Positions 15,189-60,131 of a stretch of 64,000 nt of DNA are shown here, piece by piece. Both the position numbers and the translations under genes were made by a program. The notes under the pieces are model-generated. The model was not told the DNA's origin. It saw only the letters and a program-made list of their open reading frames with translations, and did no database searches. The first letter of the stretch is position 1, and the number at the start of each line of letters is the position of its first letter. The stretch comes from a virus (Duplodnaviria; Caudoviricetes), in the IMG/VR virus record IMGVR_UViG_3300035208_006553, positions 1-64,000 of that record; one strand, 5' to 3'.

Positions 15189-15231
15189 AATATAATGCTC
15201 AAGATATTAAAATACTAAATTTTGTAATTTT

Positions 15232-16487: not shown

Positions 16488-16633
16488 AATTTGTATGGTT
16501 TCAATCTTTAAAAGGTTCTAAATCTTTAAAAGAAACATATATTAATGCTTTTCACGATCCTTTTTATCTTTTGTTATGTATAGGACCTATTTTACTGTTC
16601 TTTTCATTTAAGTATTTAGGAGTGATAAAATGA
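16484..16633 (+). CDS. Small membrane protein (49 aa)
   Basis: TTG start, hydrophobic FYLLLCIGPILLFFSF, 4-nt overlaps on both sides. Confidence 0.45.
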   Translation: MKFVWFQSLKGSKSLKETYINAFHDPFYLLLCIGPILLFFSFKYLGVIK

Positions 16634-17830: not shown

Positions 17831-17839
17831 GAAATATTA

Positions 17840-19562: not shown

Positions 19563-19604
19563 AGATTGTATAAATAAAATTTTAGGTGTAATTAGGAGTA
19601 ACTT

Positions 19605-21204: not shown

Positions 21205-21216
21205 AGGAAAAATAGT

Positions 21217-22489: not shown

Positions 22490-23088
22490 AAAGTGTATTG
22501 GTATTAGGGAACAGTAGAGGTATTGGCTTAGCAATTTCAGAAAGTTTAAGAAATGAAGGATTAATAGTTTTAAATATTAGTAGATCTTCTGGTTATGATT
22601 TAATGACTAAAGAAGGAAGAAATAAGTTATTTAATGATGTAGAAGAAACAGATATTTTAATAGGTAATGTTGGAGGAATGGGTACTTGCTCTATTGATGA
22701 TTATGAAGAGGTGATGAGAAAGAATTATTTTATTAATGTAGAAATACTATTGCATTATTTACCTTATATGGTAAGGAAAAAATGGGGAAGGGTGGTATTT
22801 ATAAGTTCTATTTTTGGAAAAGAAAAAGGAGATAATCCTGCATTTACTGCTGCGAAAGCTGCTCAAATTGCATTTATAAAAAGTATAGCAGGAAAGTATA
22901 AAGGAATTACATTTAATGTAATTTGTCCTGGTTATATTGATGTAGGTAAAGATTTTAAGAGTGACTCTAAAGTAGTTGGAATACCTGAAGATGTAGCTGT
23001 TTTAACTTCTTTTTTATGTAATGAAAAAACTTCCCATATTAATGGAGTTGCTATTGCGTGCGATGGAGGATCATCTTATTCGTTTTAA
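22486..23088 (+). CDS. Classical short-chain dehydrogenase/reductase
   Basis: GNSRGIG, ISSI, FTAAK (F replaces the catalytic Y), NVICPG, DGG. Confidence 0.8.
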   Translation: MKSVLVLGNSRGIGLAISESLRNEGLIVLNISRSSGYDLMTKEGRNKLFNDVEETDILIGNVGGMGTCSIDDYEEVMRKNYFINVEILLHYLPYMVRKKWGRVVFISSIFGKEKGDNPAFTAAKAAQIAFIKSIAGKYKGITFNVICPGYIDVGKDFKSDSKVVGIPEDVAVLTSFLCNEKTSHINGVAIACDGGSSYSF

Positions 23089-23125
23089 ATTTAAATTAAG
23101 TAATGAAAATATGGAGTTATTATAA

Positions 23126-23983
23126 ATGTTTAAAGGTAAAAAAATAGCGGTTCTCGGCGGAGAAGGAATGATAGGTAAGGAACTAGTAAAACAATTACAG
23201 TTAATAGGCGGTAATGTTTTTTCTTACGATATTAAGAACGGGTATGATTTAAGTTGTTATTCTGCATGTTACCAGATTTTTAAAGATACAGATTTTGTAT
23301 TTAGTCTAGTAGGAGTAAAAGGAAGTCCTAGGATGACTAATGCTAAACCTCTAGATTTTATGTTTCCTATGTTAAGATGCGACACAAACATTATTAAAGC
23401 TGCTATAGATTGTAAAGTTGAAAAGTTTTTATATACTTCTTCTATAGCTGTGTTAAATCCTAAAACGGATAGATTTCCTGCTTGGGCTAAAATGACAGGA
23501 GAATTGCTTTTAGAAGCTGCAAGAATACAATACCCAGATTTTAAATTTGTGATTACAAGACCTGCTAATGTATACGGTAAATATGATAATTTTGATAATA
23601 TGAATGCGATGGTAGTAACTAGTTTAGTAAGAAAAGCTATTCTTTGTAACGCGATAGAAGTACGGGGCGATGGGTCAGAGATGCGAGAGTTTATCAGTGC
23701 AAAAGATGTAGCTAAAGGAATGATACTAACAATGTTAAAGTCCCCTGAAAAACCTGTTAATTTAGGATCGGGAGAGACTCATTCTATAAAAGAACTTGCA
23801 GAGATATTAAGTAAAATATCTAATAAACCTATTGTTTATAAACTTCTTGAAAAAGAAGGTGATAGAGAAAGAGTAGTATTTAAAGATGAAAATCGAGCAG
23901 ATATAGGGTTTAAAGCAGAAGATAATTTTAAAGAAAGTATTATAGAAGTATATAATTATGCTAGAAACAAATGTGTAGAGTAG
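23126..23983 (+). CDS. NDP-sugar epimerase/reductase (extended SDR)
   Basis: GGEGMIG, YTSS, AWAK, RPANVYG, GDGS..REFI...DVA. Confidence 0.8.
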   Translation: MFKGKKIAVLGGEGMIGKELVKQLQLIGGNVFSYDIKNGYDLSCYSACYQIFKDTDFVFSLVGVKGSPRMTNAKPLDFMFPMLRCDTNIIKAAIDCKVEKFLYTSSIAVLNPKTDRFPAWAKMTGELLLEAARIQYPDFKFVITRPANVYGKYDNFDNMNAMVVTSLVRKAILCNAIEVRGDGSEMREFISAKDVAKGMILTMLKSPEKPVNLGSGETHSIKELAEILSKISNKPIVYKLLEKEGDRERVVFKDENRADIGFKAEDNFKESIIEVYNYARNKCVE

Positions 23984-23990
23984 GTGATAT

Positions 23991-24497
23991 ATGTTAGTAA
24001 AAGACACGCAATTAGTAGGAGTAAAACTTATTGAAAGTATTCCTGTTTTTGAAGATTTTAGAGGAAGATATAAAGAAACTTTTAATAAAGCAGAATATAA
24101 AAAAATTATTGATATAGAATTTGTACAAGATGATATTTCTGTATCTCGTAGAAATGTTTTACGAGGGATTCATGGAGACAAAGGTACCTGGAAGTTGATT
24201 TCTTGTTTGAAAGGAGCTTTTTATTTAGTAGTGGTTAATAACGATGAAAAAAGTGCACAATATAAATTTTGGGAAAGTTTTACATTATCTGATAGTAATA
24301 ATTTACAAGTTTTGATTCCTCCCAAGTTTGGAAACGGTCATTTAGTGTTAACTGATGAAACGATTTTTCATTATAAGCAATCTACGTATTACGGAGAGTT
24401 TAAACAGTTTACTATTCTATGGAATGATCCTGAGATTAATATAGCATGGCCTTCTCTATGTGGTAATAATCCAATTCTATCTTTAAGAGATAGTTAA
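23991..24497 (+). CDS. rmlC: dTDP-4-dehydrorhamnose 3,5-epimerase family (cupin)
   Basis: FEDFRG, FVQDDIS.S..VLRGIH, LIPP.FGNGH, WNDP.INI.WP. Confidence 0.88.
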   Translation: MLVKDTQLVGVKLIESIPVFEDFRGRYKETFNKAEYKKIIDIEFVQDDISVSRRNVLRGIHGDKGTWKLISCLKGAFYLVVVNNDEKSAQYKFWESFTLSDSNNLQVLIPPKFGNGHLVLTDETIFHYKQSTYYGEFKQFTILWNDPEINIAWPSLCGNNPILSLRDS

Positions 24498-27928: not shown

Positions 27929-28624
27929 TTGCGGAGTTTAAGAATGGGTTATACAGGTCTTTCAGATTTAAAAATTTTCTTTTTAATTCCAAGAAGAAGA
28001 GGACATAATGAAGTAATAAGTTCTGTTCAGATTGGTACTACTACAGATACTGTAGAATCAGAAGATTTTATTAAGTATTTTTTACCTTTTCAAAAGAAAG
28101 TATTAACAAAAGATATTTTATTTGAAATAGGAGAAAAGATAATCAATCAATTTCGATTATCAGATCTCAATATTAGTATAAATTTTAACTTACCAATAGA
28201 TAAGTTAAATGTGAATTTAGAAGATTCAATTTGTTTTATTTTAAATTGTACATACTCTTTTGCATTTAACAATAATATATCCAATACACGTCTTAGTATA
28301 ATGTGTCCAGTTAGAGTTAATTATTTATCTACTATTGAAGGGAGTTTAAGTATTGAAGTAATAAATCCGTCGTCTAATTTATATTTTGAAGATATATTAG
28401 ATTTAGTTATAAAGTACGGTAAGGTAATTATATACCCACTTACTCAATATTCTGAAAAAGGTTTACTTGAAATTGAAATTGATAAAGGAAAAACAGTTAA
28501 AGATTACTTAAATATTTTTAGAATTATTTTAATTAAGAGAAAAATGGCAGAGCAAGGTAGTGTAGCAATAGAATTTTATGATATTTATAAATCTTATAAA
28601 ATTAAAAAAGGAATTGAGTGGTGA
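27929..28624 (+). CDS. Degenerate FolE2 (GTP cyclohydrolase IB)-like T-fold protein lacking catalytic motifs
   Basis: Colinear by eye with 35281..36174 over its full length but lacks CPCS, AHNQR and EESIH. Confidence 0.6.
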   Translation: MRSLRMGYTGLSDLKIFFLIPRRRGHNEVISSVQIGTTTDTVESEDFIKYFLPFQKKVLTKDILFEIGEKIINQFRLSDLNISINFNLPIDKLNVNLEDSICFILNCTYSFAFNNNISNTRLSIMCPVRVNYLSTIEGSLSIEVINPSSNLYFEDILDLVIKYGKVIIYPLTQYSEKGLLEIEIDKGKTVKDYLNIFRIILIKRKMAEQGSVAIEFYDIYKSYKIKKGIEW

Positions 28625-29424
28625 AAGAGGATAAAAAAGTAGCCGTATTGGAATGTTACCCGTGCGTGCAAGGAGAAGGTCGATATGCAGGAGTACCTCA
28701 TATTTTAATAAGAACTACCGGATGTAAATTGAGGTGTATGTTTAAAAATTCAGTTTGTGACACACTTTTTGCATCTTGGTTCCCCGAAAAGGGTTTATTT
28801 ACTATTGAGGATATTAAAAAAGTTTATGAAGTAAATCCTCAAATTAGTTATACCTTAATTTCAGGAGGAGGCCCCACTCTTCATCCAGAACTATTGTCTG
28901 AATTAGTACGAGTAGCTAAAGAGTATGATCATTTTGTGACTATAGAAACAGAAGGGTCTGAGTATGTAGAAACAGAAGCAGATTTTATTTCATTATCTCC
29001 TAAATTAAAAAGTTCAGTGCCTATTGAAGGGTATAAAGTTGAATATTTAAATAGAAAAAGAATAATTACAAAAGAAGAAGTTCAAAGACACGAAGAAGGA
29101 AGAACAAATTATGAAGCTATGAAAAAATTTATAAAAGCATTTACTGTTAGGGATAGTACGACGTATACTGGTTATCAAGTTGATTATCAATTTAATTATC
29201 AATTTAAATTTGTTATTACAGATCTAGAAGATATAAAAGAGATATTACATATACAAAGATTACTAAGTTTCTCTGATGAAGCAATTTATTTAATGCCTGA
29301 AGGTATTGTAAATAGTCAGTTACAATTGCAACGAAAAGATATTATTGAAGAATGTATAAAAAGAGGGTGGAATTACAGCGACCGCTTGCACATTATCGCA
29401 TACGGGAATAAACGCGGTGTGTAA
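28618..29424 (+). CDS. queE: 7-carboxy-7-deazaguanine synthase (radical SAM)
   Basis: VQGEG..G.P..IR.TGC..RC....CDT, SGG.P, TIET.G, SLSPK, RLH. Confidence 0.92.
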   Translation: MVKEDKKVAVLECYPCVQGEGRYAGVPHILIRTTGCKLRCMFKNSVCDTLFASWFPEKGLFTIEDIKKVYEVNPQISYTLISGGGPTLHPELLSELVRVAKEYDHFVTIETEGSEYVETEADFISLSPKLKSSVPIEGYKVEYLNRKRIITKEEVQRHEEGRTNYEAMKKFIKAFTVRDSTTYTGYQVDYQFNYQFKFVITDLEDIKEILHIQRLLSFSDEAIYLMPEGIVNSQLQLQRKDIIEECIKRGWNYSDRLHIIAYGNKRGV

Positions 29425-34759: not shown

Positions 34760-35284
34760 ATGTTAGATTTTGATGTAAGAGAAATATTAGATAGGTATGG
34801 AATTAGTTATAAAACAATTCACGGAAGTACAGATTTATTTTATTATTGTCCATTTCATGTACACAGTGATGAAAATATGGGTAGTTCAAGAATTAACGAA
34901 GAAACAGGTATTTATAATTGTTTTGCTTGTAAAGAAGGAGGTAGTATATATAGATTAGTAAGCTTACTAGAAAAAGTATCGATTAATGAGGCATATCGTT
35001 TAATTAAGAATAATTTTAATATTCAGTCAGATTATAATTTAGATAAATTACAGCAAAAAACTGTTAAAGTAGTAAGTTTAAAAGCCTCACAAGTTAAGCT
35101 AGTAAATAGTATTGTCAATAAAATTTTAGAAAATTTAATTAATGTAGGAAAAAGAGATTTTATACATAAGTGGTTAATTATTTGTACTTATATAAAATCA
35201 ATTGTAGTTAGTGATTTAGAGAAAAAACAAAATGATATACTAAACATATACAGTGAATTTAACAAGGAGTTAAAAACGTTATGA
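34760..35284 (+). CDS. Stand-alone CHC2 primase zinc-binding domain protein
   Basis: CPFH...YNCFAC..GG followed by a helical tail; no TOPRIM domain. Confidence 0.82.
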   Translation: MLDFDVREILDRYGISYKTIHGSTDLFYYCPFHVHSDENMGSSRINEETGIYNCFACKEGGSIYRLVSLLEKVSINEAYRLIKNNFNIQSDYNLDKLQQKTVKVVSLKASQVKLVNSIVNKILENLINVGKRDFIHKWLIICTYIKSIVVSDLEKKQNDILNIYSEFNKELKTL

Positions 35285-36174
35285 CTCAAACATTGCCGGA
35301 TGTACAGAACAGAGAAGATCATAGAGGAATAGAACTTGACAGAGTAGGAGTTACAAATGTAAAGTTTCCTATAACTGTTTTACGTAAAGATGGAACTACT
35401 TCACCGGTTTCAGCAAAAGTAAAATTATTTGCTAACTTGCCAAAACTGGCTAAAGGGCATAATTTAAGTAGATTTTCAGAAGTATTAGTAGAGTTTGGAC
35501 CTAATCATAATTTATCTTCTAGTACAATGCTTCCATTCCTTGAAAGAATGCAAAATCATTTAGGTAGTAGAGATGTATATGCAAGATTTGAGTTTGACTA
35601 TTATATTGAAAAAACCGCTCCTGTAAGTAAGAAAAAAGCGCCTATGGCTTACGCATGTGCTTTTATAGGTATTAAAAAGAATGGAAGTTATTCTTTTATA
35701 TTAGAAGTAAATGTTACTGCAGCAAGTGTTTGTCCGTGTTCTAGAGAAATGAGTTTGTTAGAAAATCTTTCAGAAAAAGGCTTAAATGAAAAATATTCTA
35801 ATCTTACTTCTCCAGAAATTAAGTTGATTACGAATAAAGTAGGTATGGGTGCACATAATCAACGTTCCCAAATTAAAGTGGAAGTTTTAATTGATTTAAA
35901 TAGTACATTTTGGATAGAAGATTTAGTAGCAATGATTGAAGCACAAGCATCTGCTCCTACCTACCCTATTTTAAAAAGACCTGATGAGAAGAGTGTTACT
36001 GAAACCGGCTATAAGAATGCTAAATTTTCAGAAGATATAGCTCGCGATGTACAATTAGTTATTCAAAGTAGAAAAGAAGTATTAGCATGGGCTTTGAAAG
36101 TACAAAATGAAGAAAGCATACATCCTTTTGATGTGGTATCAAGTTCTAAATCTGATAATTGGAAATTTTATTAA
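35281..36174 (+). CDS. folE2: GTP cyclohydrolase IB
   Basis: LPDVQ, RVGV, KG..SRF, CPCS, GAHNQR, LKRPDE, F.ED..R, EESIH. Confidence 0.93.
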   Translation: MTQTLPDVQNREDHRGIELDRVGVTNVKFPITVLRKDGTTSPVSAKVKLFANLPKLAKGHNLSRFSEVLVEFGPNHNLSSSTMLPFLERMQNHLGSRDVYARFEFDYYIEKTAPVSKKKAPMAYACAFIGIKKNGSYSFILEVNVTAASVCPCSREMSLLENLSEKGLNEKYSNLTSPEIKLITNKVGMGAHNQRSQIKVEVLIDLNSTFWIEDLVAMIEAQASAPTYPILKRPDEKSVTETGYKNAKFSEDIARDVQLVIQSRKEVLAWALKVQNEESIHPFDVVSSSKSDNWKFY

Positions 36175-36592: not shown

Positions 36593-36898
36593 ATGAAATT
36601 CACTTACAAAAAAGACATTCCAACTGGCAGATTTAGAAGTTTTGAGTTAGAACATCATGACATTAAACTTAAAAAGAAAGTAATTGGACACATTTACGAA
36701 GATAGAGAATGTCATAAATTTCATATTCAAATAGCTGTTAATAAAAAGGACATAATTACATCTACTAATCCAAACTGTACCTGGAAATGGGTATTTTTGA
36801 AAAAGGAGTTTTCTTCTGCAAACGAAGCAAGAGAGTTTTTAGATAATAAGTGTGAAAGCATATGTTCTACATTTGATTTATATTATTTTGAAGAATAA
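36593..36898 (+). CDS. Hypothetical protein
   Basis: AGGAG ribosome-binding site upstream. Confidence 0.65.
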   Translation: MKFTYKKDIPTGRFRSFELEHHDIKLKKKVIGHIYEDRECHKFHIQIAVNKKDIITSTNPNCTWKWVFLKKEFSSANEAREFLDNKCESICSTFDLYYFEE

Positions 36899-36929
36899 AT
36901 ATTATATAAATAATTTCAGGAGAAACATA

Positions 36930-37574
36930 GTGAAAGATTATATTCTTATCTCAAAACAAATTGATCAATTTGCAACACAAGCATGTCGAATAATGACAAA
37001 AACAGAACGTGAAAAGTTTTTCAAAGATACCGATCAAAGAAGAACTTACCTCCACGGAAAAAATGCAGGAAAAGAACGTAAATTATATATTGTAGACGGG
37101 GTGTGGTTTAATGAGGTGTGGAAATTAGTTTACCCGTATGTTTTGACATCTTGTGCAAGATCAGTATATTATAACCCTGATGAGATTGCAGATGTGGTAT
37201 CTGAAATTAAATATTGGATGTTTAAAGGGTTGCAATTATACGGACCTGTATTTCACAGTAAAACGTTTTCTCAAAGAATGGGTGTAATTGTCAACATGAT
37301 ATTAACTAATGAACATAAAAAGAAATTGAAAAGACTTCAAATTCGTTCATTAGAAAGCATTAATGAAGATGGTGAAGTTGAACAAATAGAAATAAGAGAC
37401 AATCAAAGCAATATGGATCATATAGATTTCTGGTTAAGTATTCCTCAAAAGTTTGAAGTTATTGTGAAGCAATTAATTTCTGGTAACACACTGACAGAGA
37501 CAAGTAGAAATTGTAATATACCTCTTTCAGAGCTTAAAAATGAATTAAAATTTGTAGTTAGTAATGTTGAATGA
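36930..37574 (+). CDS. Divergent sigma-factor-like / HTH protein
   Basis: Likely GTG start at 36930 after AGGAGA; region-2-like helices, IRSLESINEDGE linker, C-terminal HTH (GNTLTETSRNCNIPLS). Confidence 0.5.
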   Translation: MKDYILISKQIDQFATQACRIMTKTEREKFFKDTDQRRTYLHGKNAGKERKLYIVDGVWFNEVWKLVYPYVLTSCARSVYYNPDEIADVVSEIKYWMFKGLQLYGPVFHSKTFSQRMGVIVNMILTNEHKKKLKRLQIRSLESINEDGEVEQIEIRDNQSNMDHIDFWLSIPQKFEVIVKQLISGNTLTETSRNCNIPLSELKNELKFVVSNVE

Positions 37575-37599
37575 AATACAGCAGTTCTACTCTAAACGT

Positions 37600-37609
37600 A
37601 ATGTATTAT
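37600..37609 (+). promoter_or_regulatory. Candidate promoter (AATGTATTAT)
   Basis: Intergenic variant of the recurrent AATGTATWAT motif; heads the run ending in GNAT-kinase-queF. Confidence 0.45.
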
Positions 37610-37629
37610 ATAATAAAAGGATACAATAA

Positions 37630-38172
37630 ATGGCAGATATTGATATAATTCACGCACGTGATTGTGAAATAGGAAAAACATATTTACTTGTTTTAGGCCC
37701 TTCGTCTGTTTACAAAATAACAATTAAAAGCATAGGTGAAATGGGAGTAGGTGTTGATGATGAAAGATATCCAGGTCAAACTAATACAGTTATATCAGGA
37801 GATACTAGTCTTATAGAATATGATGAAGTTTTTTACAGCGAAGCTAAAGGTAAACGAATTGTTAAAGCACCTAAAAATAAAGATGAAGAAAATAGTATTA
37901 AAAAGGAAGATAAAGTAATTTTGGTAAAGGTTAAAGGAGAAAAAATGTCACAAAACAAAAATCCGCGAAGTAAGACTATTGATAAAATGTTATCTGAAGT
38001 TCCAGAAAATACAGTACCTGACTGGAATTTAATAGTTGACGCAGTATTGAAAGAAAGTAAAGGTGATGAAAAAGATCGATCAAATATTATTTTTCAAGCT
38101 AAGATGAGACATAAATGGTACACTAAACAAGGAAAAGTTAACCCTTATTCAACTTTAAGTAAAGTCGAATAA
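37630..38172 (+). CDS. Hypothetical protein (possible internal start at 37945)
   Basis: AAGGA upstream; in-frame AAGGAG-N6-ATG at 37945. Confidence 0.6.
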   Translation: MADIDIIHARDCEIGKTYLLVLGPSSVYKITIKSIGEMGVGVDDERYPGQTNTVISGDTSLIEYDEVFYSEAKGKRIVKAPKNKDEENSIKKEDKVILVKVKGEKMSQNKNPRSKTIDKMLSEVPENTVPDWNLIVDAVLKESKGDEKDRSNIIFQAKMRHKWYTKQGKVNPYSTLSKVE

Positions 38173-38178
38173 GTAATT

Positions 38179-38649
38179 ATGTCTAAAATTAGATTAGCAA
38201 CTTTAGAAGATCTTTTAAGTTTAAGACAACTTATTCAAGAATCTTTTAAAGAAAGTATTCAAGTAACAGGTGAAGAACCTCTCGGATATGACGATGTTAT
38301 TAAACTTCAAAATCACATTTTAGATAGTCATTGTTATTTACTTGAAAATGAAGTTTCTAAAAAGAAAATAATTGTAGCTGGTTATATCTTTTATCCAACT
38401 TATCCAAAAAGTAAGAGAGTATACTATCTTTCACGAATTTTTGTACACCCTAGTTTTCAAAGTAGAGGTTTTGGTAAAGAGTTAGTAGAACATATGTTAA
38501 GTAATAAAAACGTAAAAGTATGGAAATTACATGCTGTCAGTTCTAATATTAATCTTAAAAAGTTCTACGAAAGTTTTGGATTTAAAAAAGTAAGTGAAGA
38601 AAAACCTCGGAATGTTGTATTATCTGTCTATCAAAAAGAGATGAAATGA
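38179..38649 (+). CDS. GNAT-family N-acetyltransferase
   Basis: IRLAT.ED, IFVHPSFQSRGFGKELV (acetyl-CoA motif A), N..KFYESFGF. Confidence 0.9.
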   Translation: MSKIRLATLEDLLSLRQLIQESFKESIQVTGEEPLGYDDVIKLQNHILDSHCYLLENEVSKKKIIVAGYIFYPTYPKSKRVYYLSRIFVHPSFQSRGFGKELVEHMLSNKNVKVWKLHAVSSNINLKKFYESFGFKKVSEEKPRNVVLSVYQKEMK

Positions 38650-39245
38650 AACCTATTTTAATTCAATTTACAGGTGCTCAGAGTACTGGTAAAACAACGT
38701 TAGTGAAAGAGTTGCAAAAATTGTATGGAGGAAAAGCGAGTTTTATAGGCGAGGCTTCTCGTACATTAAAAGCTAAAAAGGGAATAGCCGAGGTTGACGT
38801 GCAAGCCAATTCCGATATACAGATTATTCTTAATAGTGAGTTAATGTTACAATATATTGAGAAATTAGATAGTCATCCTAAATCAATAATAATAGCTGAA
38901 CGTACGCCTATATGCTGTCTAGCTTATGGTAGATATGTCAAGACAACAGATTCTCACATGTATATGTTAGAACAAACAGAGCGTTTAATTGTAGCACAGC
39001 AATTAAGATCCGATATTAAAACGTTAACTTTTTACTGTCCTCTTTTAGATTCTTTTGAAGAGGACGGGTTTCGTTATAAAGAATCTCAAGAAATGATTGA
39101 TCACATGATTAAGTCAATTTTAAATGAGTTCAATATTGTGCATTACATTTTACCTTTAACTTCAGTTAAACATAGAATTAAATTTGTTCAGAAAATAATA
39201 GAGGAAAATTTTTCATGGGTGATATTACAAGTCAAGAAGTTATAA
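38646..39245 (+). CDS. P-loop nucleotide/nucleoside kinase-like protein (AAA_28/NadR-like)
   Basis: FTGAQSTGKTT, GE.SR, ERTPI...AY, EEDGFR. Confidence 0.8.
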   Translation: MKPILIQFTGAQSTGKTTLVKELQKLYGGKASFIGEASRTLKAKKGIAEVDVQANSDIQIILNSELMLQYIEKLDSHPKSIIIAERTPICCLAYGRYVKTTDSHMYMLEQTERLIVAQQLRSDIKTLTFYCPLLDSFEEDGFRYKESQEMIDHMIKSILNEFNIVHYILPLTSVKHRIKFVQKIIEENFSWVILQVKKL

Positions 39246-39694
39246 AAGACTTAAAGAAATTAGGCAATCAAAATACAGAATACCCAATTGAACCTAATAT
39301 AAATATCTTAGAAACATTTAAGGCACCTTCTTTAAAACTCTTTACAGTGAAGTTTGTTCAAGAGCATAACGAATTTTCATCAATATGTCCGAAAAGTCAC
39401 CAACCAGATTTTGCGACAATCAAAATTTTATATTCACCAAGTAATGTTTGTATCGAAAGTAAATCATTGAAGTTATATTTATTTTCTTATCGAAATAGTA
39501 AAGGGTTTGGAGAACATATTACAAACAAGATAGCGGATGATTTACAAGCGGTATTAAATAGTCGCTGGTTAGTAGTTATAGGAGATTTCTCACCGAGAGG
39601 TGGATTGAGATGGGTTTCTAAGGTGATTAGAAATTCAGTAGATGTATGTGATTTATTTGATTACGAGAAATTAATGATTGCAGAATTTAATTAA
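39215..39694 (+). CDS. queF: NADPH-dependent preQ0 reductase (unimodular)
   Basis: EFSSICPKSHQPDFA (catalytic Cys), QueF motif ESKSLKLY, F.PRGG. Confidence 0.9.
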   Translation: MGDITSQEVIKDLKKLGNQNTEYPIEPNINILETFKAPSLKLFTVKFVQEHNEFSSICPKSHQPDFATIKILYSPSNVCIESKSLKLYLFSYRNSKGFGEHITNKIADDLQAVLNSRWLVVIGDFSPRGGLRWVSKVIRNSVDVCDLFDYEKLMIAEFN

Positions 39695-39725
39695 TCTAGA
39701 TTTTCTCCTGAGTCTAGGTTGATTT

Positions 39726-39776
39726 CCTGAGCGGGATTGATAAGAGTAAAATCAAGTCTTTTCCGCAAAGGTTTTT
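39726..39776 (+). terminator. Long hairpin plus T5 after queF (terminator or structured RNA)
   Basis: CCT-GA-GCGGGA...TTCCGC-AA-AGG with inner TTGAT/ATCAA, then TTTTT. Confidence 0.5.
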
Positions 39777-39814: not shown

Positions 39815-40024
39815 ATGAGCAGATACGATTCTGAATTATTACTAAAAGGAAAAGTAATTAATAAATGCAGTTGTGGAGAGAAAGCTCAACCAGGAAAGAC
39901 CGTAGATGCTACTTTTTACAAAACTAAAAGTTTTCATATGTGGTGTTTTTGTGGAAAGCGTACAAAAGATACACTGACATTAGACGAAGCAATAAAAAAA
40001 TGGAATGAAGGAGATTTTGAATGA
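39815..40024 (+). CDS. Small Zn-ribbon protein (Lar-like)
   Basis: CSCG...CFCG...EAIKKWN. Confidence 0.55.
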   Translation: MSRYDSELLLKGKVINKCSCGEKAQPGKTVDATFYKTKSFHMWCFCGKRTKDTLTLDEAIKKWNEGDFE

Positions 40025-40752
40025 AAAAAGCGATTGTGATACTTTCAGGAGGTCTTGATTCGAGTACATGTCTATACATAGCAAAAGACCAGGGATATGA
40101 TTTATATGCTGTTACTTTTGCTTATCATCAACGCCATTTTATAGAAATTGAGTGTGCAAAGAAAATAGCAATAGCAGCCGGTGTTAAAGAGCATCGAATT
40201 ATTGAATTACCTACTCCTAAAGGTACAGCTTTAACTGAAAATAGTAATATAAAAGTACCTAAAGGTAGAAATTTAGAAGAGTTATCTATTGAAGTACCTC
40301 CCACTTATGTACCCGCTCGTAATACACTTTTTATTGCTTATGCTCTTCAGTATGCAGAAGAGGTAGAAGCAGAGGTTATTTTTACAGGTATAACCGCGGT
40401 AGATTCCAGTCCATATCCCGACACAAGACCAGAGTATATTGATGCTTGGCAAAAATTAATTAATAAAGCAACCAAACAGACAGTTACAGGTCATAGTATT
40501 AGATTAGAAACTCCTCTTCTTCATTTATATAAATCTGAAACTATAGAAATTGGAATGAACTTAGGTGTTCCTTACGAACTTACCTGGTCGTGTTACTCTC
40601 CGATTTATAATAGCGAAACTGAAAAGGATGAATATTGTTTGTCTTGTGATACATGCACATTACGAAATAAATCTTTTATAGAAGCTGGATATAGAGATCC
40701 TGGAGTAAGTGAAGAGAGATGGGGCGAAGTTGTAAAAAATTGGAATCATTAA
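40021..40752 (+). CDS. queC: 7-cyano-7-deazaguanine synthase
   Basis: SGGLDS PP-loop, Y.QRH, TYVPARN, YPDTR, TWSCY, C..CDTC. Confidence 0.95.
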   Translation: MKKAIVILSGGLDSSTCLYIAKDQGYDLYAVTFAYHQRHFIEIECAKKIAIAAGVKEHRIIELPTPKGTALTENSNIKVPKGRNLEELSIEVPPTYVPARNTLFIAYALQYAEEVEAEVIFTGITAVDSSPYPDTRPEYIDAWQKLINKATKQTVTGHSIRLETPLLHLYKSETIEIGMNLGVPYELTWSCYSPIYNSETEKDEYCLSCDTCTLRNKSFIEAGYRDPGVSEERWGEVVKNWNH

Positions 40753-40753: not shown

Positions 40754-41398
40754 ATGTGCGGGATAACCGGGTGTATAGTTCGAGATAACAAAGAATATGC
40801 TTCTATAGTATACTCAAAACTTGTAAGGAATTCAGATATAAGAGGACAAGATGGAACTGGTATAACTCTTTTAAGAAATGGAGAATTTAAAACTTTAAAG
40901 TGGTGCGAAAGAGCCAAGGACATACCTTTTTTTATTTCTTTAGATATTGGAGATAAGATTGTAGGACAGAATAGATATGCAATTTTTGGATTAGATCATA
41001 CAGATGACCAGCCCCTTATAAATGACTATTTTGCATTAGTACATAACGGTGTTTTGTATAATTATGAGGAACAGTTCAAAGAGTCAGGTTTTAGAAGAGA
41101 GTTAAAAGTTGATACTGAATTAATTTTAAGGTATTTAGAACATTATTTTCTTCCCTATGATCCTATTAACAGTATTAAGAAAGTAATGGAAGGTTTTGAA
41201 GGAGAGGGAGCTTGTTTAGTATTGACTACAACTACAGTTCCTTTTTTGGCTTTTATGAAGAATAAAATTTTGTATTCAGGACAAGATATGTATGGCAATA
41301 CTTATTTCTTTTCTACAATGTATATTAAAAATAAAATACCTGAAATTTGTGAAAATATAAGAGAATTTGAAAACGGTGATGTTGAAGTAATTTATTAG
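40754..41398 (+). CDS. Class II (Ntn) glutamine amidotransferase, stand-alone
   Basis: N-terminal MCGI, RG.DGTG, GQNRYA, QP, VHNG, VDTE. Confidence 0.88.
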   Translation: MCGITGCIVRDNKEYASIVYSKLVRNSDIRGQDGTGITLLRNGEFKTLKWCERAKDIPFFISLDIGDKIVGQNRYAIFGLDHTDDQPLINDYFALVHNGVLYNYEEQFKESGFRRELKVDTELILRYLEHYFLPYDPINSIKKVMEGFEGEGACLVLTTTTVPFLAFMKNKILYSGQDMYGNTYFFSTMYIKNKIPEICENIREFENGDVEVIY

Positions 41399-41903: not shown

Positions 41904-42716
41904 ATGTTCCATAGTATATTATGTCCAGCTGCGTGTCTTGATCAATTTGCAATCCGTTCAAAGTTTCATTTAATATTACCTCATCTCTTAGACAAATTAC
42001 CTCAGTATAAAGAGTTTTATAAAGAGAGAGCAAAACAAGGAGATCATATACTTCTTGATAATTCTATATTTGAACATGGTTACAGTTTCGATTACAAGAA
42101 AATGATTAAGTATGCTGAAGAAATGGAATTAACTGAAATTTCAGCTCCCGAGGTGCTTAAAGATAGAGAAGCATCTTTAGTGTTGAGAGAAGAGTTTTTG
42201 AATTATTATGTTAAAAGTGGAAGTAAAGTTAAAATTTTAGCTGTAGCTCAAGGTAAAAATCTTGAAGAGGTTGAAGAAAGTTATTTTGAGTTGTTAAGAA
42301 TACCGGAAATTACTACTCTTGGATTACCTTTTGATCTTGATGATCAGGGAGATTCTGCATATAGCGGTGGAGAGAGAATTAGAAGTTTGACTTTACGAAG
42401 AGTTGTAAATAGATGGGGTTTAGTTGATCGTATTAATGCAATATCATATTCTAAAGGTATTGAATTAAAGCCAACTCATTTAATGGGTTTAAGTGATGCT
42501 GTTGAATTGCAGAAATATAAAGATTTTCCTTGGATTAGATCTAATGATTCTTCAACAGCTTTTGTGCATGGTGTTAATCTTATTAAATATACTGATAGAG
42601 GGTTACCATGTGAAAAAATAAGTCAAAAATTAGATTTTGCAGGATGGAAGATTTTACATCCTCAACAAGTTGAATTTATAAATTATAATATAGATAAAAT
42701 ATTAAGCTGGATTTAA
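41904..42716 (+). CDS. tRNA-guanine transglycosylase-fold protein (DpdA-like base-exchange candidate)
   Basis: TIM-barrel motif order LLDNS.FE, APEV, AVAQG, LGLP, HLMGL, IRSNDSS parallels TGT (DSGG, D, QG, YLMG, FD); located in the que context. Confidence 0.65.
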   Translation: MFHSILCPAACLDQFAIRSKFHLILPHLLDKLPQYKEFYKERAKQGDHILLDNSIFEHGYSFDYKKMIKYAEEMELTEISAPEVLKDREASLVLREEFLNYYVKSGSKVKILAVAQGKNLEEVEESYFELLRIPEITTLGLPFDLDDQGDSAYSGGERIRSLTLRRVVNRWGLVDRINAISYSKGIELKPTHLMGLSDAVELQKYKDFPWIRSNDSSTAFVHGVNLIKYTDRGLPCEKISQKLDFAGWKILHPQQVEFINYNIDKILSWI

Positions 42717-42734: not shown

Positions 42735-45362
42735 ATGTCTGAAATTAATTTCTTACCAAGTTTGCACGGCCAAAATTGTAATAAATGTAAATTATGTGAA
42801 GTACGAAAAAATATAGTACCTTCTTATTTACCATCTACTGCTCAAATACTTTTTTTAGCGGAGGCTCCGGGAGAATGTGAAGATGAAAAAGGTACAATGC
42901 CATTAATTGGAAATGCTGGTAAATTTTTAGATGAATGTATTCATATTGCAGGTTATGATAGAAACGATCCTGGATTTGCTTTTGCGAATGTCGTGCGTTG
43001 TAGGCCAGTATCTAACGAAGAAGGAAAAAAGAATAGACAGCCAAAAGATGGTGAAATTAAAGCATGTTCTGATTATTTAGATCGAGAAATAGCTTCTTTG
43101 AAAGATTTAAAAGTAATTATATGTTTAGGTAACGTTGCAAGTAATAGAGTATTAGGAAAACTAGGTGTTGGAATTACTCATTTAAGAGATCATATATGCT
43201 ATCATTCAAAATACAATGTCAATGTTGTTGTAACCTACCACCCTGCAGCACCTCTTCATGTCAACACTGTCCAAGAAAAGATAGGAATGAGGACAGCTAT
43301 TGTAGAAGATATTCAAAAAGTTGTAAAGTTATTAAGAGAAGAAAAAATACCTCTTCAGCATAAATCGTACGTATGTAACAATATGAGAAGGGTGAGATGG
43401 TTATTTGAACAACTTAATAAACAAGAAATAATTTCATGGGATACAGAAACAGATGCTCTAGACTACTTAGAAGCTAACATATTGTGTCATTCTTTTTCAT
43501 GGCAAGTTGGAACAGGTGTTGTTTTACCTCTTTTACAACAATACAGCAAACCATTTTGGAGTCCGGGAGAGTATGATGAAATTCAAAAATTAGTAAAAAG
43601 TGTTTTAGAGAATCCTAATATTAAAAAGATTGCTCAGAATGGTAAATTTGATATTCAGCAAGCGAGACATGCAGGAATCAATGTTCAGAATTTTTACGCA
43701 GACACTATGTTGCAACACTATTGTATAAATGAAAATATTGACCATGGGTTAAAAATGCTTGCATGGCTATATACTGATTACGGAGGTTACGAAGAGGAGT
43801 TAGATACAATAAGAGAAAAGTATGCAAAAGAAGCAGGTATTTCAAAGAAAGAAGCTTCTTTTAACATTATACCAAATGAAATTCTATGGAAATATTCAGG
43901 AATGGATCCCGATGTTACGCTTCAAATATATTATAAACTTTTACCTATTTTAGAAGCTGAAGGGACGATTAAAATATTTCAAGAATTGTATATGCCTTTT
44001 ACGAGATTTGTTGCTGATATGGAGTATGAAGGTATGAATGTGGATAAAGAATATTTAATTGAGACTCAGCAGAAGTTTAAAGAACGTATTAAAGGTCTAG
44101 AAGAACAAATTTATAGAAACAGAGACGTTAGAATTTATGTTGAAAGTAGAAAAAAGAAACATCGAGAGGAAAGAGCTGCTAAGTGGGATAAGTCCAAAAA
44201 TTTACAATCTAGATATAAGAATAGAGAAGAGTATTGCGAATTAAAAATTGAAGAAATTGCAGATTTTAATTATGGATCTGATAAGCAATTAAAAGAGTTA
44301 TTTATTGACCAATTGCAATTAAAAATAGGTAAGAGAACAAACGGAGGAGGCGCTTCTTTTGATAAAGAAGCTATGGAAGTTTATGCTAGAAAAGTACCTA
44401 TAGCTAAATTAATTGCCGATGCTAATAAGACTGCTAATTTATTAACAATTTTTTTGGACGGCATTTTAGATAGAATACGTACAGATGGAAGAGTTCATAC
44501 TTCTTTAAATTTACAAATTGCAGAGTCGGGAAGACTTTCAAGCAGCGGGCCCAATCTTCAAAATATTCCCAACCGTACAAATAACCCTACCGATGCAAAA
44601 CTGATAAGAGATATTTATATTGCTGATTCTCCAAATCATGTTATTATAGAATTTGACCAAAAGCAGTGCGAGTTTCGGACATGGTGCCAAATGTCTCAAG
44701 ATCCTGTTATGATTCAGGATTTAGCAAATGGGTTAGATATACATACTGATATAGCTTCTGAAGGGTTTAAAATACCAAAAGATCAAGTTACGAAAGAGAA
44801 GAGAGACGGAGCTAAAGGTGTCGTTTTTGGTAAAATGTATGGAAGAGGAAATAGATCAGTTGCTGATCAATTAGGTATTTCTATTAAAGAAGCTGAGAAA
44901 ATAGAAACTGCTTTATTTAGTAAATATAAAGTAGCATCAGCTTGGTTAAGACAGGTAGTTATTAAAGCAAGACATGATAAATATGTTGATAATTTATTTG
45001 GATTTAGAAGACATTTAAAGGGTTTAATAGATAGTTCTGATTCTGCTTTACGTTCAGCAGCTGAAAGGTTAGCCGTGAACGCTCCCATTCAAGGAGGAGC
45101 TTCTCAAATGGTATGTTATGCTATGTTAAAAGCAGATAAACTTTTTAAAGAAAATAATATTAGAGGACGTTTATTATTTCCTATTCACGATGCTATTTTA
45201 TTTAGCGTACATAAAGATGATATAAGAAGAGCAATACCTTTAATTGAAGAGAGTATGATACATCCTCACCCGCTTATAAATGTACCTTTGGGGATTGATG
45301 GGAAAATTGGGTATAGGTGGGGGTCAACTCAAACTGTTGAAGAGTATTTACAAACAAATTAA
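42735..45362 (+). CDS. polA: Family A DNA polymerase with N-terminal family-4 uracil-DNA-glycosylase domain and 3'-5' exonuclease
   Basis: CxxCxLC, AEAPG..ED, N.VRCRP..NR.P, TYHPAA (UDG4); DTET, NGKFD, Y...D (exo); SGRLSS..PNLQN, D..Q.E.R, R..AK...FG..YG, NAPIQG, IHDA. Confidence 0.95.
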   Translation: MSEINFLPSLHGQNCNKCKLCEVRKNIVPSYLPSTAQILFLAEAPGECEDEKGTMPLIGNAGKFLDECIHIAGYDRNDPGFAFANVVRCRPVSNEEGKKNRQPKDGEIKACSDYLDREIASLKDLKVIICLGNVASNRVLGKLGVGITHLRDHICYHSKYNVNVVVTYHPAAPLHVNTVQEKIGMRTAIVEDIQKVVKLLREEKIPLQHKSYVCNNMRRVRWLFEQLNKQEIISWDTETDALDYLEANILCHSFSWQVGTGVVLPLLQQYSKPFWSPGEYDEIQKLVKSVLENPNIKKIAQNGKFDIQQARHAGINVQNFYADTMLQHYCINENIDHGLKMLAWLYTDYGGYEEELDTIREKYAKEAGISKKEASFNIIPNEILWKYSGMDPDVTLQIYYKLLPILEAEGTIKIFQELYMPFTRFVADMEYEGMNVDKEYLIETQQKFKERIKGLEEQIYRNRDVRIYVESRKKKHREERAAKWDKSKNLQSRYKNREEYCELKIEEIADFNYGSDKQLKELFIDQLQLKIGKRTNGGGASFDKEAMEVYARKVPIAKLIADANKTANLLTIFLDGILDRIRTDGRVHTSLNLQIAESGRLSSSGPNLQNIPNRTNNPTDAKLIRDIYIADSPNHVIIEFDQKQCEFRTWCQMSQDPVMIQDLANGLDIHTDIASEGFKIPKDQVTKEKRDGAKGVVFGKMYGRGNRSVADQLGISIKEAEKIETALFSKYKVASAWLRQVVIKARHDKYVDNLFGFRRHLKGLIDSSDSALRSAAERLAVNAPIQGGASQMVCYAMLKADKLFKENNIRGRLLFPIHDAILFSVHKDDIRRAIPLIEESMIHPHPLINVPLGIDGKIGYRWGSTQTVEEYLQTN

Positions 45363-59558: not shown

Positions 59559-60131
59559 ATGAGGAAGTGGGAAATATCAAAACAGTTTGAATTTTCATAC
59601 GGGCATAGAGTTTGGAGTCAGGAATTAAATAAAGAATTTAGTTTAGATAATAGCTGCTTTTGCCGGTTCATACACGGTCATAATTCAGTTCTTGTAGTTT
59701 ATCTTGAAGCAAGTAGTTTAATAAATGGAATGGTAACAGATTTTAAAAATTTAAATTGGTTAAAGAAATGGATTGACAATACTATTGATCACAAGTTTAT
59801 TATGGACATTAACGATCCGCTATTACCTCACGAAGTATCTGAACCTATAAATCGTTTTATAGGAAATTTTGGAATGAGTTTTGAAAAAGATGGTCTAATT
59901 AAACATGCAGAAGGATATGCTACAATCAATCCTAAATGTTACGAGGATTTTATTTTTCCCGTACGGGAGAAATTTGAAGGTATGGTATTTGTTTCTTTTG
60001 TACCCACTTCAGAAAATTTAAGTAAATGGATATTTGAAATAATTCAAGAAAAAATGTTAAAAATAGGTATAAAAGTATCTAAAGTAGATTTCTACGAGAC
60101 ACCTAAATCGAAATCTAGTTATTCAATTTAA
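59559..60131 (+). CDS. queD: 6-carboxytetrahydropterin synthase
   Basis: F.F..GHR, CRFIHGHN, GMVTDF, DH, PTSEN, ETP. Confidence 0.92.
   Translation: MRKWEISKQFEFSYGHRVWSQELNKEFSLDNSCFCRFIHGHNSVLVVYLEASSLINGMVTDFKNLNWLKKWIDNTIDHKFIMDINDPLLPHEVSEPINRFIGNFGMSFEKDGLIKHAEGYATINPKCYEDFIFPVREKFEGMVFVSFVPTSENLSKWIFEIIQEKMLKIGIKVSKVDFYETPKSKSSYSI

What the first reader, a model, noticed from the sequence alone, without database searches (positions are those of the whole stretch)
38179..39694. GNAT-kinase-QueF overlapping genes: candidate for a new base, N-acetyl-preQ1
Seen: a GNAT acetyltransferase, a P-loop kinase-like gene and a QueF with the intact ESKSLKLY motif overlap in series and end at a hairpin. 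Established: QueF yields the primary amine preQ1, and phages are known to methylate (DpdM) or formylate (DpdN) that amine in DNA. Inference: the GNAT acetylates the aminomethyl group to give 7-(acetamidomethyl)-7-deazaguanine, which I do not know as a described DNA base. Adjacency is the only link, and the GNAT could have an unrelated protein substrate.
Basis: partly seen in the sequence, partly recalled or inferred. Interest (0 to 1): 0.85.

Follow-up and report, generated by a model that had tools for sequence, protein, structure and literature searches.

The report
Predicted acetyl-preQ1 DNA base module
An uncultured phage that replaces guanine in its DNA with a 7-deazaguanine carries an acetyltransferase exactly where related phages carry the formyltransferase that makes formyl-preQ1, so it probably makes an undescribed acetylated DNA base.

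Summary
GNAT (38179-38649), an AAA_28 nucleotide-kinase-like gene (38646-39245) and a unimodular QueF (39215-39694) overlap in series and end at a strong hairpin. They sit in a full DpdA3-type 7-deazaguanine cluster (FolE2, QueD, QueE, QueC, GATase, DpdA3, PolA).

There are now four more:
- The GNAT-kinase-QueF order recurs in nine metagenomic lineages, down to 28% GNAT identity and with two QueF types.
- GNAT and kinase are fused into one protein in three lineages, from at least two origins.
- In two lineages nested in the same clade, in 46 of 68 untruncated IMG/VR DpdA3 loci, and in Flavobacterium phage immuto_2-6A (DNA shown to hold formyl-preQ1), a PF00551 formyltransferase (DpdN) stands beside the same kinase-QueF pair. 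GNAT and formyltransferase never co-occur.
- A sister lineage without QueF has neither.

Best reading, confidence 0.6: the GNAT is a non-homologous analogue of DpdN that N-acylates, probably acetylates, preQ1.

Caveats:
- There is no biochemistry.
- All GNAT loci belong to one phage clade.
- This clade's QueF lacks the catalytic histidine.

The kinase is a widespread partner of DpdA3 that the one DpdA3 paper found never mentions. An earlier scan note on another genome reported a different GNAT fusion in a DpdN island.

The parts
38179..38649 (+). GNAT N-acyltransferase (156 aa), the proposed preQ1 N-acetyltransferase and a functional analogue of DpdN
   Evidence: Pfam GNAT families score above their cut-offs. 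The motif QSRGFG and the invariant Tyr130 are conserved across 8 relatives. The AF2 model has pLDDT 92.6 and its top Foldseek hit is PaiA (1tiq).
38646..39245 (+). AAA_28 P-loop kinase-like protein ('KIN', 199 aa), with a nucleoside/nucleotide-kinase fold; a conserved partner of DpdA3
   Evidence: AAA_28 scores 54.7 bits and phrog_2107 6.7e-17. The AF2 model has pLDDT 90.9; Foldseek finds thymidylate kinases and the NadR RNK domain 6gyf_B at TMq 0.69. It is homologous to immuto gp203 and CP220 gp057 and is fused to the GNAT in P0004, P0006 and P0044.
39215..39694 (+). Unimodular QueF (preQ0 reductase, 159 aa), with the catalytic His replaced by Gly99
   Evidence: TIGR03139 scores 119 bits, above its cut-off. 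The alignment to 4F8B is, and the clade alignment.
39690..39771 (+). Two stem-loops followed by a U-run after queF, probably the end of the operon
   Evidence: strand folding gives -30.9 kcal/mol, z = -4.94.
41904..42716 (+). DpdA3-type transglycosylase-like protein (270 aa)
   Evidence: tblastn matches immuto DpdA3 (2e-15, 96% coverage), the Campylobacter CP220 group and phiST.
40021..40752 (+). QueC (preQ0 synthase)
   Evidence: PF06508 scores 220 bits; TIGR00364 scores 190.5 bits, above its cut-off.
40754..41398 (+). Class II glutamine amidotransferase next to QueC (a split Gat-QueC arrangement)
   Evidence: GATase_6 and GATase_7. Its presence in relatives does not depend on QueF or the GNAT.
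35281..36174 (+). GTP cyclohydrolase FolE2
   Evidence: PF02649 scores 245 bits; NF010200 scores 224 bits, above its cut-off.
28618..29424 (+). QueE-like radical SAM enzyme
   Evidence: phrog_2076 scores 5.9e-39; there is also a weak PF04055 hit.
59559..60131 (+). QueD (PTPS family)
   Evidence: PF01242 scores 93.6 bits, above its cut-off.
36852..38172 (+). Two conserved upstream genes: orf240 (sigma-70 region 4-like in a relative) and orf180 (unknown, weak HARE-HTH lead). They always precede the module and are probably regulators, not pathway enzymes.
   Evidence: Synteny is shown. L013's homologue gives weak Sigma70_r4_2 hits, and the atlas lead scores below 0.9.

Best explanation
The window comes from an uncultured, low-GC tailed phage with a DpdA3-type system that replaces guanine in its DNA with a 7-deazaguanine.

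**Inferred pathway**
- FolE2, QueD, QueE and QueC, with a glutamine amidotransferase probably supplying ammonia, make preQ0.
- QueF reduces preQ0 to preQ1 (7-aminomethyl-7-deazaguanine).
- The GNAT then transfers an acyl group, most likely acetyl from acetyl-CoA, to the aminomethyl nitrogen. This is the step that the unrelated formyltransferase DpdN performs in Flavobacterium phage immuto_2-6A.
- The predicted DNA base is 7-(acetamidomethyl)-7-deazaguanine, N-acetyl-preQ1.

**The kinase**
The AAA_28 kinase-like protein between GNAT and QueF is not specific to the acylation step. It is a general partner of DpdA3 with a nucleoside/nucleotide-kinase fold. Its fusion to the GNAT suggests that both act on the same small molecule or in one complex.

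**Shown and inferred**
- Shown: the gene identities, the conserved linkage, the fusions, the mutually exclusive replacement of GNAT by formyltransferase, and the absence of both when QueF is absent.
- Inferred: the substrate, the acyl donor, the level at which acylation occurs (free base, nucleotide or DNA), and the presence of the product in virion DNA.
For: 1. **Domain identities.**
2. **Conserved order.** orf180-GNAT-KIN-QueF is found in nine GNAT lineages: window/L016, L004-6, L007, L008, L009, L012, L013-15, L019 and L108.
   - GNAT identity falls to 28%.
   - Surrounding genes move while the order holds. QueC lies upstream or downstream. Dam, a 94-aa ORF or an HNH domain is inserted.
   - QueF is unimodular or bimodular.
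3. **Fusions.** P0004 (three contigs from three samples), P0006 and P0044 are GNAT-KIN fusion proteins. On the KIN tree they need at least two origins.
4. **Replacement in the clade.** L018 and L021 lack the GNAT and carry a PF00551 formyltransferase (87.9 and 96.3 bits) between KIN and QueF. Their KINs nest inside the GNAT-bearing clade, with support of 100/100 and 95/81.
5. **The experimentally characterised phage.** In immuto_2-6A the order is DpdA3-x-DpdN-'thymidylate kinase'-QueF. Its DNA holds fdPreQ1 with all G replaced (PMC10516641). That kinase is a homologue of the window's KIN (BLASTP 3e-6; hhalign 96.7%, 163 columns).
6. **IMG/VR tally.** Of 68 untruncated DpdA3 loci, 42 have FT+KIN+QueF, 4 have FT+QueF and 14 have KIN+QueF. 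FT occurs with QueF in 46 of 48 FT-bearing loci. GNAT and FT never co-occur.
7. **Absence without QueF.** The sister lineage L026/L027 (DpdA3 47% identical, records of 129 and 133 kb) has no QueF and no GNAT. It has KIN, plus a DUF5591 (ArcS-core) protein and a class III aminotransferase in the variable slot.
8. **No DpdN here.** There is no PF00551 gene in the window's 108-kb record.
9. **The GNAT looks active.** Motif A (Q-x-x-G-x-G) and Tyr130 are conserved. Its nearest solved relatives include small-molecule primary-amine acetyltransferases: NATA1 and diamine acetyltransferase by sequence, and PaiA by fold.
10. **Family boundary.** The next GNAT outside the family (P0012, E = 3e-8) sits in a bacterial aromatic amino-acid operon.
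Against: - **No biochemistry.** There is no biochemical or mass-spectrometric evidence, and a GNAT's acceptor and acyl donor cannot be read from sequence or fold.
- **One clade.** All GNAT-bearing loci belong to one phage clade whose whole replication module is syntenic. The nine lineages are therefore not independent samples of co-occurrence.
- **Acylation is optional.** 14 of 68 DpdA3-KIN-QueF loci carry no acyltransferase nearby.
- **QueF lacks a catalytic residue.** The unimodular QueFs of this clade have Gly in place of the catalytic His96 of B. subtilis QueF, so preQ1 formation is not certain here. Three GNAT lineages, however, have a bimodular QueF; in L009, whose QueF domain is visible, the His is kept, while in L004 and L007 the contig ends before that position.
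- **A possible rival fate for preQ0.** A glutamine amidotransferase beside QueC could in principle divert preQ0 towards archaeosine.
- **Incomplete record.** The record is only about 61% complete, so a DpdN or DpdM elsewhere cannot be fully excluded.
Confidence: 0.6

Rival explanations
1. The GNAT does acylate the preQ1 amine, but with a group other than acetyl, such as another acyl-CoA or an aminoacyl group. The DNA base would then be a different N-acyl-preQ1.
For: GNAT-fold enzymes use many acyl donors, and nothing or 95 fixes the donor. A sister lineage carries quite different tailoring enzymes in the same slot, so side-chain chemistry in this clade is diverse.
Against: A minimal 150-170 aa GNAT with the canonical Q-x-x-G-x-G motif most often uses acetyl-CoA. 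Its best structural matches are acetyl-CoA enzymes.
Confidence: 0.15
2. The GNAT belongs to the module but has another acceptor. It might acetylate a protein (the kinase, DpdA3 or a host factor) or another amine of a nucleotide intermediate. The preQ1 side chain would stay free.
For: Fusion to KIN shows a link to the kinase, not directly to preQ1. There are weak sequence hits to RimI-type protein acetyltransferases, and N-terminal acetyltransferases appear among the fold matches.
Against: This does not explain why a PurN-type formyltransferase, a small-molecule amine formylase tied to fdPreQ1, replaces the GNAT one-for-one in nested relatives. It also does not explain why the GNAT is absent exactly where QueF is absent. 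The RimI score is 34.9 bits against a cut-off of 86.4.
Confidence: 0.15
3. The GNAT is an unrelated accessory gene, such as an anti-defence or host-takeover acetyltransferase, that sits beside queF only through inherited synteny.
For: All occurrences lie in one phage clade with a conserved gene order. GNATs are common accessory genes in phages (PHROGs acetyltransferase families).
Against: The GNAT is fused to the pathway-linked kinase at least twice. It is mutually exclusive with DpdN-type formyltransferases. It is lost together with QueF in L026/L027 while the neighbouring genes stay. Its position is kept although QueC, Dam, HNH and the QueF type all vary around it.
Confidence: 0.07

Closest known systems
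[quoted passage not shown] 2023, PMC10516641)
   Same: Both have a DpdA3-type transglycosylase and the full FolE-QueD-QueE-QueC-QueF pathway. Both have an N-acyltransferase gene beside a homologous AAA_28 kinase and QueF. The expected chemistry is the same: acylation of the preQ1 aminomethyl nitrogen.
   Different: The acyltransferase here has the GNAT fold, not the PF00551 PurN-like fold, and no PF00551 gene is in the record. The donor would be an acyl-CoA rather than a formyl-folate, so the product would be acetyl rather than formyl. QueF is unimodular and lacks the catalytic His, whereas immuto's is bimodular and keeps it. FolE is type 2.
[quoted passage not shown]
   Same: It is a tailoring enzyme acting on the preQ1 amine after QueF in a phage DNA-modification cluster.
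   Different: It methylates rather than acylates, has an unrelated fold, and works with DpdA1/DpdA2 and partial replacement. No KIN homologue was found in those phages.
Small-molecule amine N-acetyltransferases of the GNAT superfamily (PaiA/SSAT/SpeG, NATA1)
   Same: The fold, the acetyl-CoA motif and the conserved Tyr are shared. These are the best solved relatives by sequence and by structure, and they acetylate primary amines.
   Different: Identity is only 15-23% and no equivalog model is met. The family-specific PPGYDS motif in the alpha1-alpha2 region is not theirs.
Pre-replicative hypermodification pathways with a dedicated dNMP kinase (T4 hm-dCMP with gp1; Z-genome phages with MazZ/DatZ); recalled from memory, not tested here
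   Same: A phage nucleotide-kinase-fold gene is tightly linked to base-modification genes and to the phage's own polymerase. DpdA3 phages reach complete replacement of the base (PMC10516641).
   Different: Cui et al. propose that DpdA3 acts after replication. No dGTP-depleting enzyme (HD, MazG, PRA-PH) was found in this record.
TmcA/NAT10 (ac4C in RNA); recalled from memory, not tested here
   Same: A GNAT domain works with a P-loop NTPase domain in one protein to N-acetylate a nucleobase.
   Different: The P-loop domain there is helicase-like. Here it has a thymidylate-kinase / NadR-RNK fold. The substrate there is RNA cytidine.

Membership tests
GNAT superfamily (PF00583/PF13508/PF13673) | Profile match above the curated cut-off | tested here: met
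   49.7, 46.9 and 46.7 bits against cut-offs of 27, 20.7 and 23.6.
GNAT superfamily (PF00583/PF13508/PF13673) | Acetyl-CoA pyrophosphate-binding motif A (Q/R-x-x-G-x-G/A) and a conserved catalytic Tyr | tested here: met
   QSRGFG at residues 92-97. G97 and Y130 are invariant in 8 relatives.
GNAT superfamily (PF00583/PF13508/PF13673) | GNAT fold | tested here: met
   The AF2 model has pLDDT 92.6. Foldseek finds PaiA 1tiq_A at E = 1.7e-11 and TMq 0.81, plus hundreds of other GNATs.
GNAT superfamily (PF00583/PF13508/PF13673) | Acyl-CoA-dependent N-acyl transfer, and the identity of the acceptor | not testable with these tools
   This needs an enzyme assay.
DpdN (preQ1/dPreQ1 formyltransferase, PF00551) | Homology to PurN-like formyltransferases | tested here: not met
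   The GNAT has no PF00551 match and the whole record has none. It is an analogue of DpdN, not a member.
DpdN (preQ1/dPreQ1 formyltransferase, PF00551) | Encoded with DpdA and the FolE-to-QueF pathway, beside KIN and QueF | tested here: met
   The GNAT stands beside the same kinase-QueF pair as DpdN-type genes do in immuto and in L018/L021, and is mutually exclusive with them.
Ribosomal-protein S18 acetyltransferase RimI (TIGR01575) | Equivalog score above the cut-off | tested here: not met
   34.9 bits against a cut-off of 86.4.
QueF, unimodular (TIGR03139 / PF14489) | Equivalog score above the cut-off | tested here: met
   119 bits against 86.9.
QueF, unimodular (TIGR03139 / PF14489) | NADPH motif E(S/L)K(S/A)hK(L/Y)(Y/F/W), as given in PMC10516641 | tested here: met
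   ESKSLKLY.
QueF, unimodular (TIGR03139 / PF14489) | Catalytic Cys nucleophile and Asp (B. subtilis C55, D62) | tested here: met
   C58 and D65 align with 4F8B and are invariant in the clade.
QueF, unimodular (TIGR03139 / PF14489) | Catalytic His (B. subtilis H96, in the 'FHE' motif) | tested here: not met
   It is Gly99 ('FGE') in all six unimodular QueFs of the clade. The His is kept in Dp-1, immuto and the L009 bimodular QueF. What this means for activity is unknown.
AAA_28 / NadR ribosylnicotinamide-kinase-like P-loop kinases | Profile match, Walker A motif, and nucleoside/nucleotide-kinase fold | tested here: met
   AAA_28 scores 54.7 bits. The Walker A is GAQSTGKT, and R39, Q59, R86, Y94, D140 and R143 are invariant in 38 sequences. 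Foldseek finds thymidylate kinases and NadR 6gyf_B at TMq 0.69.
AAA_28 / NadR ribosylnicotinamide-kinase-like P-loop kinases | NadR equivalog (TIGR01526), or true thymidylate kinase | tested here: not met
   TIGR01526 scores 22.3 bits against a cut-off of 341. There is no Pfam thymidylate-kinase hit, and identity to solved TMPKs is 12-18%.
DpdA3 (Cui et al. 2023) | Sequence similarity to the founding members (phiST CGPG_00065, CP220, immuto) | tested here: met
   tblastn gives 2e-15 (immuto, 96% coverage), 2e-14 (CP220) and 3e-9 (phiST). D52, N53, S54, H192 and D215 are invariant.
DpdA3 (Cui et al. 2023) | Inserts a 7-deazaguanine with complete replacement of G | not testable with these tools
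   This needs analysis of virion DNA.

The most novel reading that the evidence does not exclude
In DpdA3 phages the 7-deazaguanine would enter DNA through the nucleotide pool, not by exchange on finished DNA.

- The conserved kinase would phosphorylate a 7-deaza-(deoxy)guanosine nucleoside or monophosphate.
- The GNAT here, or the PurN-like DpdN elsewhere (PurN's normal substrate is the amine of a ribonucleotide), would acylate the preQ1 side chain on that nucleotide.
- The phage's own polymerase would then incorporate the product.

This would explain the complete replacement of G and the GNAT-kinase fusions. N-acetyl-dPreQ1 would then be both a new DNA base and a new nucleotide metabolite.
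Probability: 0.22. Interest if true: 0.9.

Novelty: new variant of a known kind. Interest (0 to 1): 0.72.

Why it matters
Eight 7-deazaguanine derivatives are known in phage DNA (PMC10516641), and an acetylated preQ1 would be a ninth. It would be made by an enzyme unrelated to the known formyltransferase. That would show that phages reach N-acylated preQ1 by non-homologous routes, and that one slot in the cluster is swapped between tailoring enzymes: GNAT, DpdN, or ArcS-like plus aminotransferase.

Such bases block restriction enzymes and are of practical use in DNA chemistry.

The analysis also brings out a kinase that accompanies DpdA3 in 62 of 68 IMG/VR loci, in Campylobacter phage CP220 and in immuto. 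The one paper on DpdA3 found in the library never mentions a kinase. This makes the open question of how DpdA3 phages replace all their guanines directly testable.

Tried and rejected
- **Searches for close relatives found none.**
  - Single-protein searches with GNAT, KIN, QueF and DpdA3 in IMG/VR found nothing.
  - megablast and tblastn of the GNAT against INPHARED found nothing.
  - The word-based protein search found only the query itself.
  - Relatives came only from the exhaustive HMMER search and from alignment-based locus searches.
- **KIN alignment searches.** They found nothing in IMG/VR or in bacterial and archaeal genomes.
- **GNAT alignment.** It was too divergent to make search patterns.
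- **Complex prediction of KIN with GNAT.** It returned no verdict (score 0.00). This counts neither for nor against binding.
- **CP220 gp055 (HD + AAA_33) and BSTP12_039.** Neither is a detectable homologue of KIN.
- **RimI or NadR membership.** Rejected on scores far below the cut-offs.
- **A dGTP-depleting or salvage enzyme in the window's record.** HD, MazG, PRA-PH and PRTase were all sought and not found, but the record is incomplete.
- **Whole-record search of L018's contig.** It was not possible because the record is not held.
- **Literature.** Searches for any acetyl-preQ1 name gave zero papers. The only paper on DpdA3 found was Cui et al. 2023. The Campylobacter dADG paper (Crippen et al.) is not in the library.
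Full report
**What is in the window**

The window is the first 64 kb of a 108-kb IMG/VR virus record estimated to be 61% complete. GC content is about 30% and nearly all genes lie on the + strand.

At the reported coordinates there are three serially overlapping ORFs:
- **GNAT, 38179-38649.** Three Pfam GNAT families score above their cut-offs.
- **Kinase-like gene ('KIN'), 38646-39245.** It is an AAA_28 P-loop protein (54.7 bits). PHROGs calls it 'thymidylate kinase' (6.7e-17).
- **QueF, 39215-39694.** It is unimodular. TIGR03139 scores 119 bits against a cut-off of 86.9.

A 14-bp hairpin covers the queF stop codon, followed by a second stem-loop and a U-run (z = -4.9).

One qualification applies to QueF. 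It has the ESKSLKLY motif, the Cys nucleophile, the Asp and the Glu. The catalytic His of B. subtilis QueF, however, is Gly99, here and in all six unimodular QueFs of this clade. The His is kept in phage Dp-1, in immuto and in the bimodular QueF of relative L009.

**The surrounding pathway**

The record encodes a complete route to a 7-deazaguanine:
- FolE2 (35281-36174)
- QueD (59559-60131)
- QueE-like (28618-29424)
- QueC (40021-40752), with a class II glutamine amidotransferase directly after it (40754-41398)
- a 270-aa protein (41904-42716), followed by a family A polymerase

These rest.

The best phage matches of the 270-aa protein are the three founding members of the DpdA3 subfamily: Flavobacterium phage immuto_2-6A, the Campylobacter CP220 group and Cellulophaga phiST. 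In those phages G is completely replaced (PMC10516641). No PF00551 formyltransferase (DpdN) is present in the record.

**Is the GNAT linked to QueF by more than adjacency?**

Close relatives were absent from IMG/VR and INPHARED. An exhaustive HMMER search of 1.8 billion representatives then found a small family. Looking up the contigs and a metagenome scan gave nine GNAT lineages. Four results follow.

1. **The order holds while its surroundings change.** Everywhere the downstream DNA is visible, the order is orf180-GNAT-KIN-QueF.
   - This holds although GNAT identity falls to 28%.
   - QueC lies upstream in some lineages and downstream in others.
   - Dam, a 94-aa ORF or an HNH domain is inserted in some.
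   - QueF is unimodular in some lineages. In L009 it is a bimodular, HNH-fused form. In L004 and L007 the contigs end inside the homologous HNH extension.
2. **Fusion to the kinase.** In three lineages GNAT and KIN are a single fusion protein: P0004, P0006 and P0044. P0004 was seen on three contigs from three samples. On the KIN tree the fusions need at least two origins.
3. **Replacement by a formyltransferase.** L018 and L021 have the same orf240-orf180-KIN-QueF frame but no GNAT. A PF00551 formyltransferase instead lies between KIN and QueF. Their KINs nest inside the GNAT-bearing clade, with support of 100/100 for the clade and 95/81 for the inner set. This is a swap within the clade.
4. 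**Loss together with QueF.** The sister lineage L026/L027 keeps FolE2, orf240, KIN, QueC, GATase, DpdA3 and PolA. It has no QueF and no GNAT anywhere in records of 129 and 133 kb. In the variable slot it has a DUF5591 (ArcS-core) protein and a class III aminotransferase.

**The link to a characterised system**

Flavobacterium phage immuto_2-6A DNA contains 7-(formylamino)methyl-7-deazaguanine in place of all G. DpdN (YP_010114479.1, PF00551) was proposed as the formyltransferase (PMC10516641).

Its annotated cluster reads DpdA3, a hypothetical gene, DpdN, 'thymidylate kinase', then QueF. That kinase is a full-length homologue of the window's KIN (BLASTP 3e-6; hhalign 96.7% over 163 columns). 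The window's GNAT-KIN-QueF therefore corresponds gene for gene to immuto's DpdN-KIN-QueF, with an unrelated acyltransferase in the first position.

I scanned the 80 best IMG/VR DpdA3 loci with profiles built here. Among 68 untruncated loci:

| Genes seen with DpdA3 | Loci |
|---|---|
| formyltransferase + KIN + QueF | 42 |
| formyltransferase + QueF | 4 |
| KIN + QueF, no acyltransferase | 14 |
| KIN only | 5 |
| other combinations | 3 |

Formyltransferase occurs with QueF in 46 of 48 loci that carry it. GNAT and formyltransferase never occur together.

**What the proteins look like**

- **GNAT.** It keeps motif A (QSRGFG) and the invariant Tyr130. Its model is confident (pLDDT 92.6). The nearest solved relatives include primary-amine acetyltransferases: NATA1 and diamine acetyltransferase by sequence, and PaiA by fold. 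This fits a small-molecule amine acceptor but cannot identify it.
- **KIN.** Its model (pLDDT 90.9) matches thymidylate kinases and the ribosylnicotinamide-kinase domain of NadR (TMq 0.69). Across 38 sequences the Walker A residues and R39, Q59, R86, Y94, D140 and R143 are invariant. From memory, this pattern resembles nucleoside and nucleotide kinases.

**The kinase as a partner of DpdA3**

- KIN homologues lie next to DpdA3 in CP220 (gp057; hhalign 96%), which has neither QueF nor an acyltransferase.
- They also occur in 62 of 68 IMG/VR loci.
- In INPHARED they are found in the immuto and Campylobacter DpdA3 phages and in Streptomyces and Rhodococcus phages with no deazaguanine context. None was found in DpdA1/DpdA2 phages.
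- Other DpdA3 phages also carry nucleotide-metabolism genes in the cluster: phiST has an AAA_18 P-loop protein and MazG, immuto has a PRA-PH hydrolase and a phosphoribosyltransferase, and CP220 has an HD-AAA_33 protein.
- The word 'kinase' does not occur in Cui et al. 2023.

This suggests a nucleotide-level step in DpdA3 systems, but does not show one. In this record I found no HD, MazG, PRA-PH or PRTase gene.

**Conclusion**

The most likely reading is that the GNAT is a tailoring enzyme for the preQ1 side chain. It would be a non-homologous analogue of DpdN, giving N-acetyl-preQ1 in DNA.

Confidence that it N-acylates preQ1 is about 0.6. Of the remainder, 0.15 goes to a different acyl group, 0.15 to a different acceptor within the module, and about 0.07 to an unrelated passenger gene.

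The main weaknesses are these:
- There is no chemistry.
- All GNAT loci belong to a single clade.
- Acylation is optional in related modules.
- The unimodular QueF lacks the catalytic His.

No paper in the library names such a base. I did not test that note, but it points the same way.

Noticed in passing
window 38646-39245; L023:13460-13984; L025:6798-7340; L026-L105: An AAA_28 kinase family is linked to DpdA3 in immuto, in CP220 and in 62 of 68 IMG/VR DpdA3 loci, usually between the formyltransferase and QueF. The word 'kinase' does not occur in the paper that defined DpdA3.
   Followed up: partly
L026:4386-6370 (also L027): A sister phage lineage has a DUF5591 (ArcS-core) protein and a class III aminotransferase where the window has GNAT/QueF. 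It also has an MT-A70 methylase between QueC and the GATase. This may be a different, possibly undescribed, 7-deazaguanine side chain.
   Followed up: partly
window 39215-39694 (residue 99): All six unimodular QueFs of this clade have Gly in place of the catalytic His ('FGE' instead of 'FHE'). All other catalytic and NADPH-motif residues are kept. The effect on nitrile reduction is unknown.
   Followed up: partly
window 40754-41398: A stand-alone class II glutamine amidotransferase follows QueC. In relatives it is present or absent independently of QueF, GNAT and the formyltransferase. That fits ammonia supply to QueC better than a competing archaeosine route.
   Followed up: partly
L012:11596-13839; L009:2453-4165; L004:5055-6050 and 8555-9505; L007:1765-2082: Selfish elements invade the pathway genes of relatives. 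There is an intein with a LAGLIDADG domain inside QueC. An HNH-like domain is fused to the N-terminus of bimodular QueF. A NUMOD3/PvuRts1I-like endonuclease follows FolE2.
   Followed up: partly
window 36852-37574 and 37630-38172: Two genes always precede the module. One has a sigma-70 region 4-like C-terminus (weak hits in L013's homologue). The other is a 180-aa protein with only a weak HARE-HTH lead (atlas score 0.81-0.84). They are probably transcription or DNA-binding factors.
   Followed up: partly
L023:9822-10217 and 11261-11785; L113:2558-3939; L025:4847-5878: Characterised DpdA3 phages carry nucleotide-pool enzymes inside their deazaguanine clusters. Immuto has a phosphoribosyltransferase and a PRA-PH hydrolase. 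phiST has MazG and an AAA_18 kinase-like protein. CP220 has an HD-AAA_33 protein.
   Followed up: partly
L016 (Ga0172381_10002418): A second metagenome contig carries the same module at 99-100% protein identity. Its PolA match is split into two overlapping pieces (residues 1-329 at 94.5% identity and 311-875), which suggests an indel or frameshift there.
   Followed up: no
L008:12331-14991; L013:13319-16357; window 42735-45362: The family A polymerase directly after DpdA3 carries an N-terminal UDG-family domain in relatives, according to precomputed Pfam. The window's polymerase is 41-43% identical to these over its full length.
   Followed up: no
window 27929-28624 and 8102-24497: Other first-stage notes on this window report a FolE2-like paralogue overlapping queE and a large glycosyltransferase island after the tail genes. 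I examined neither.
   Followed up: no
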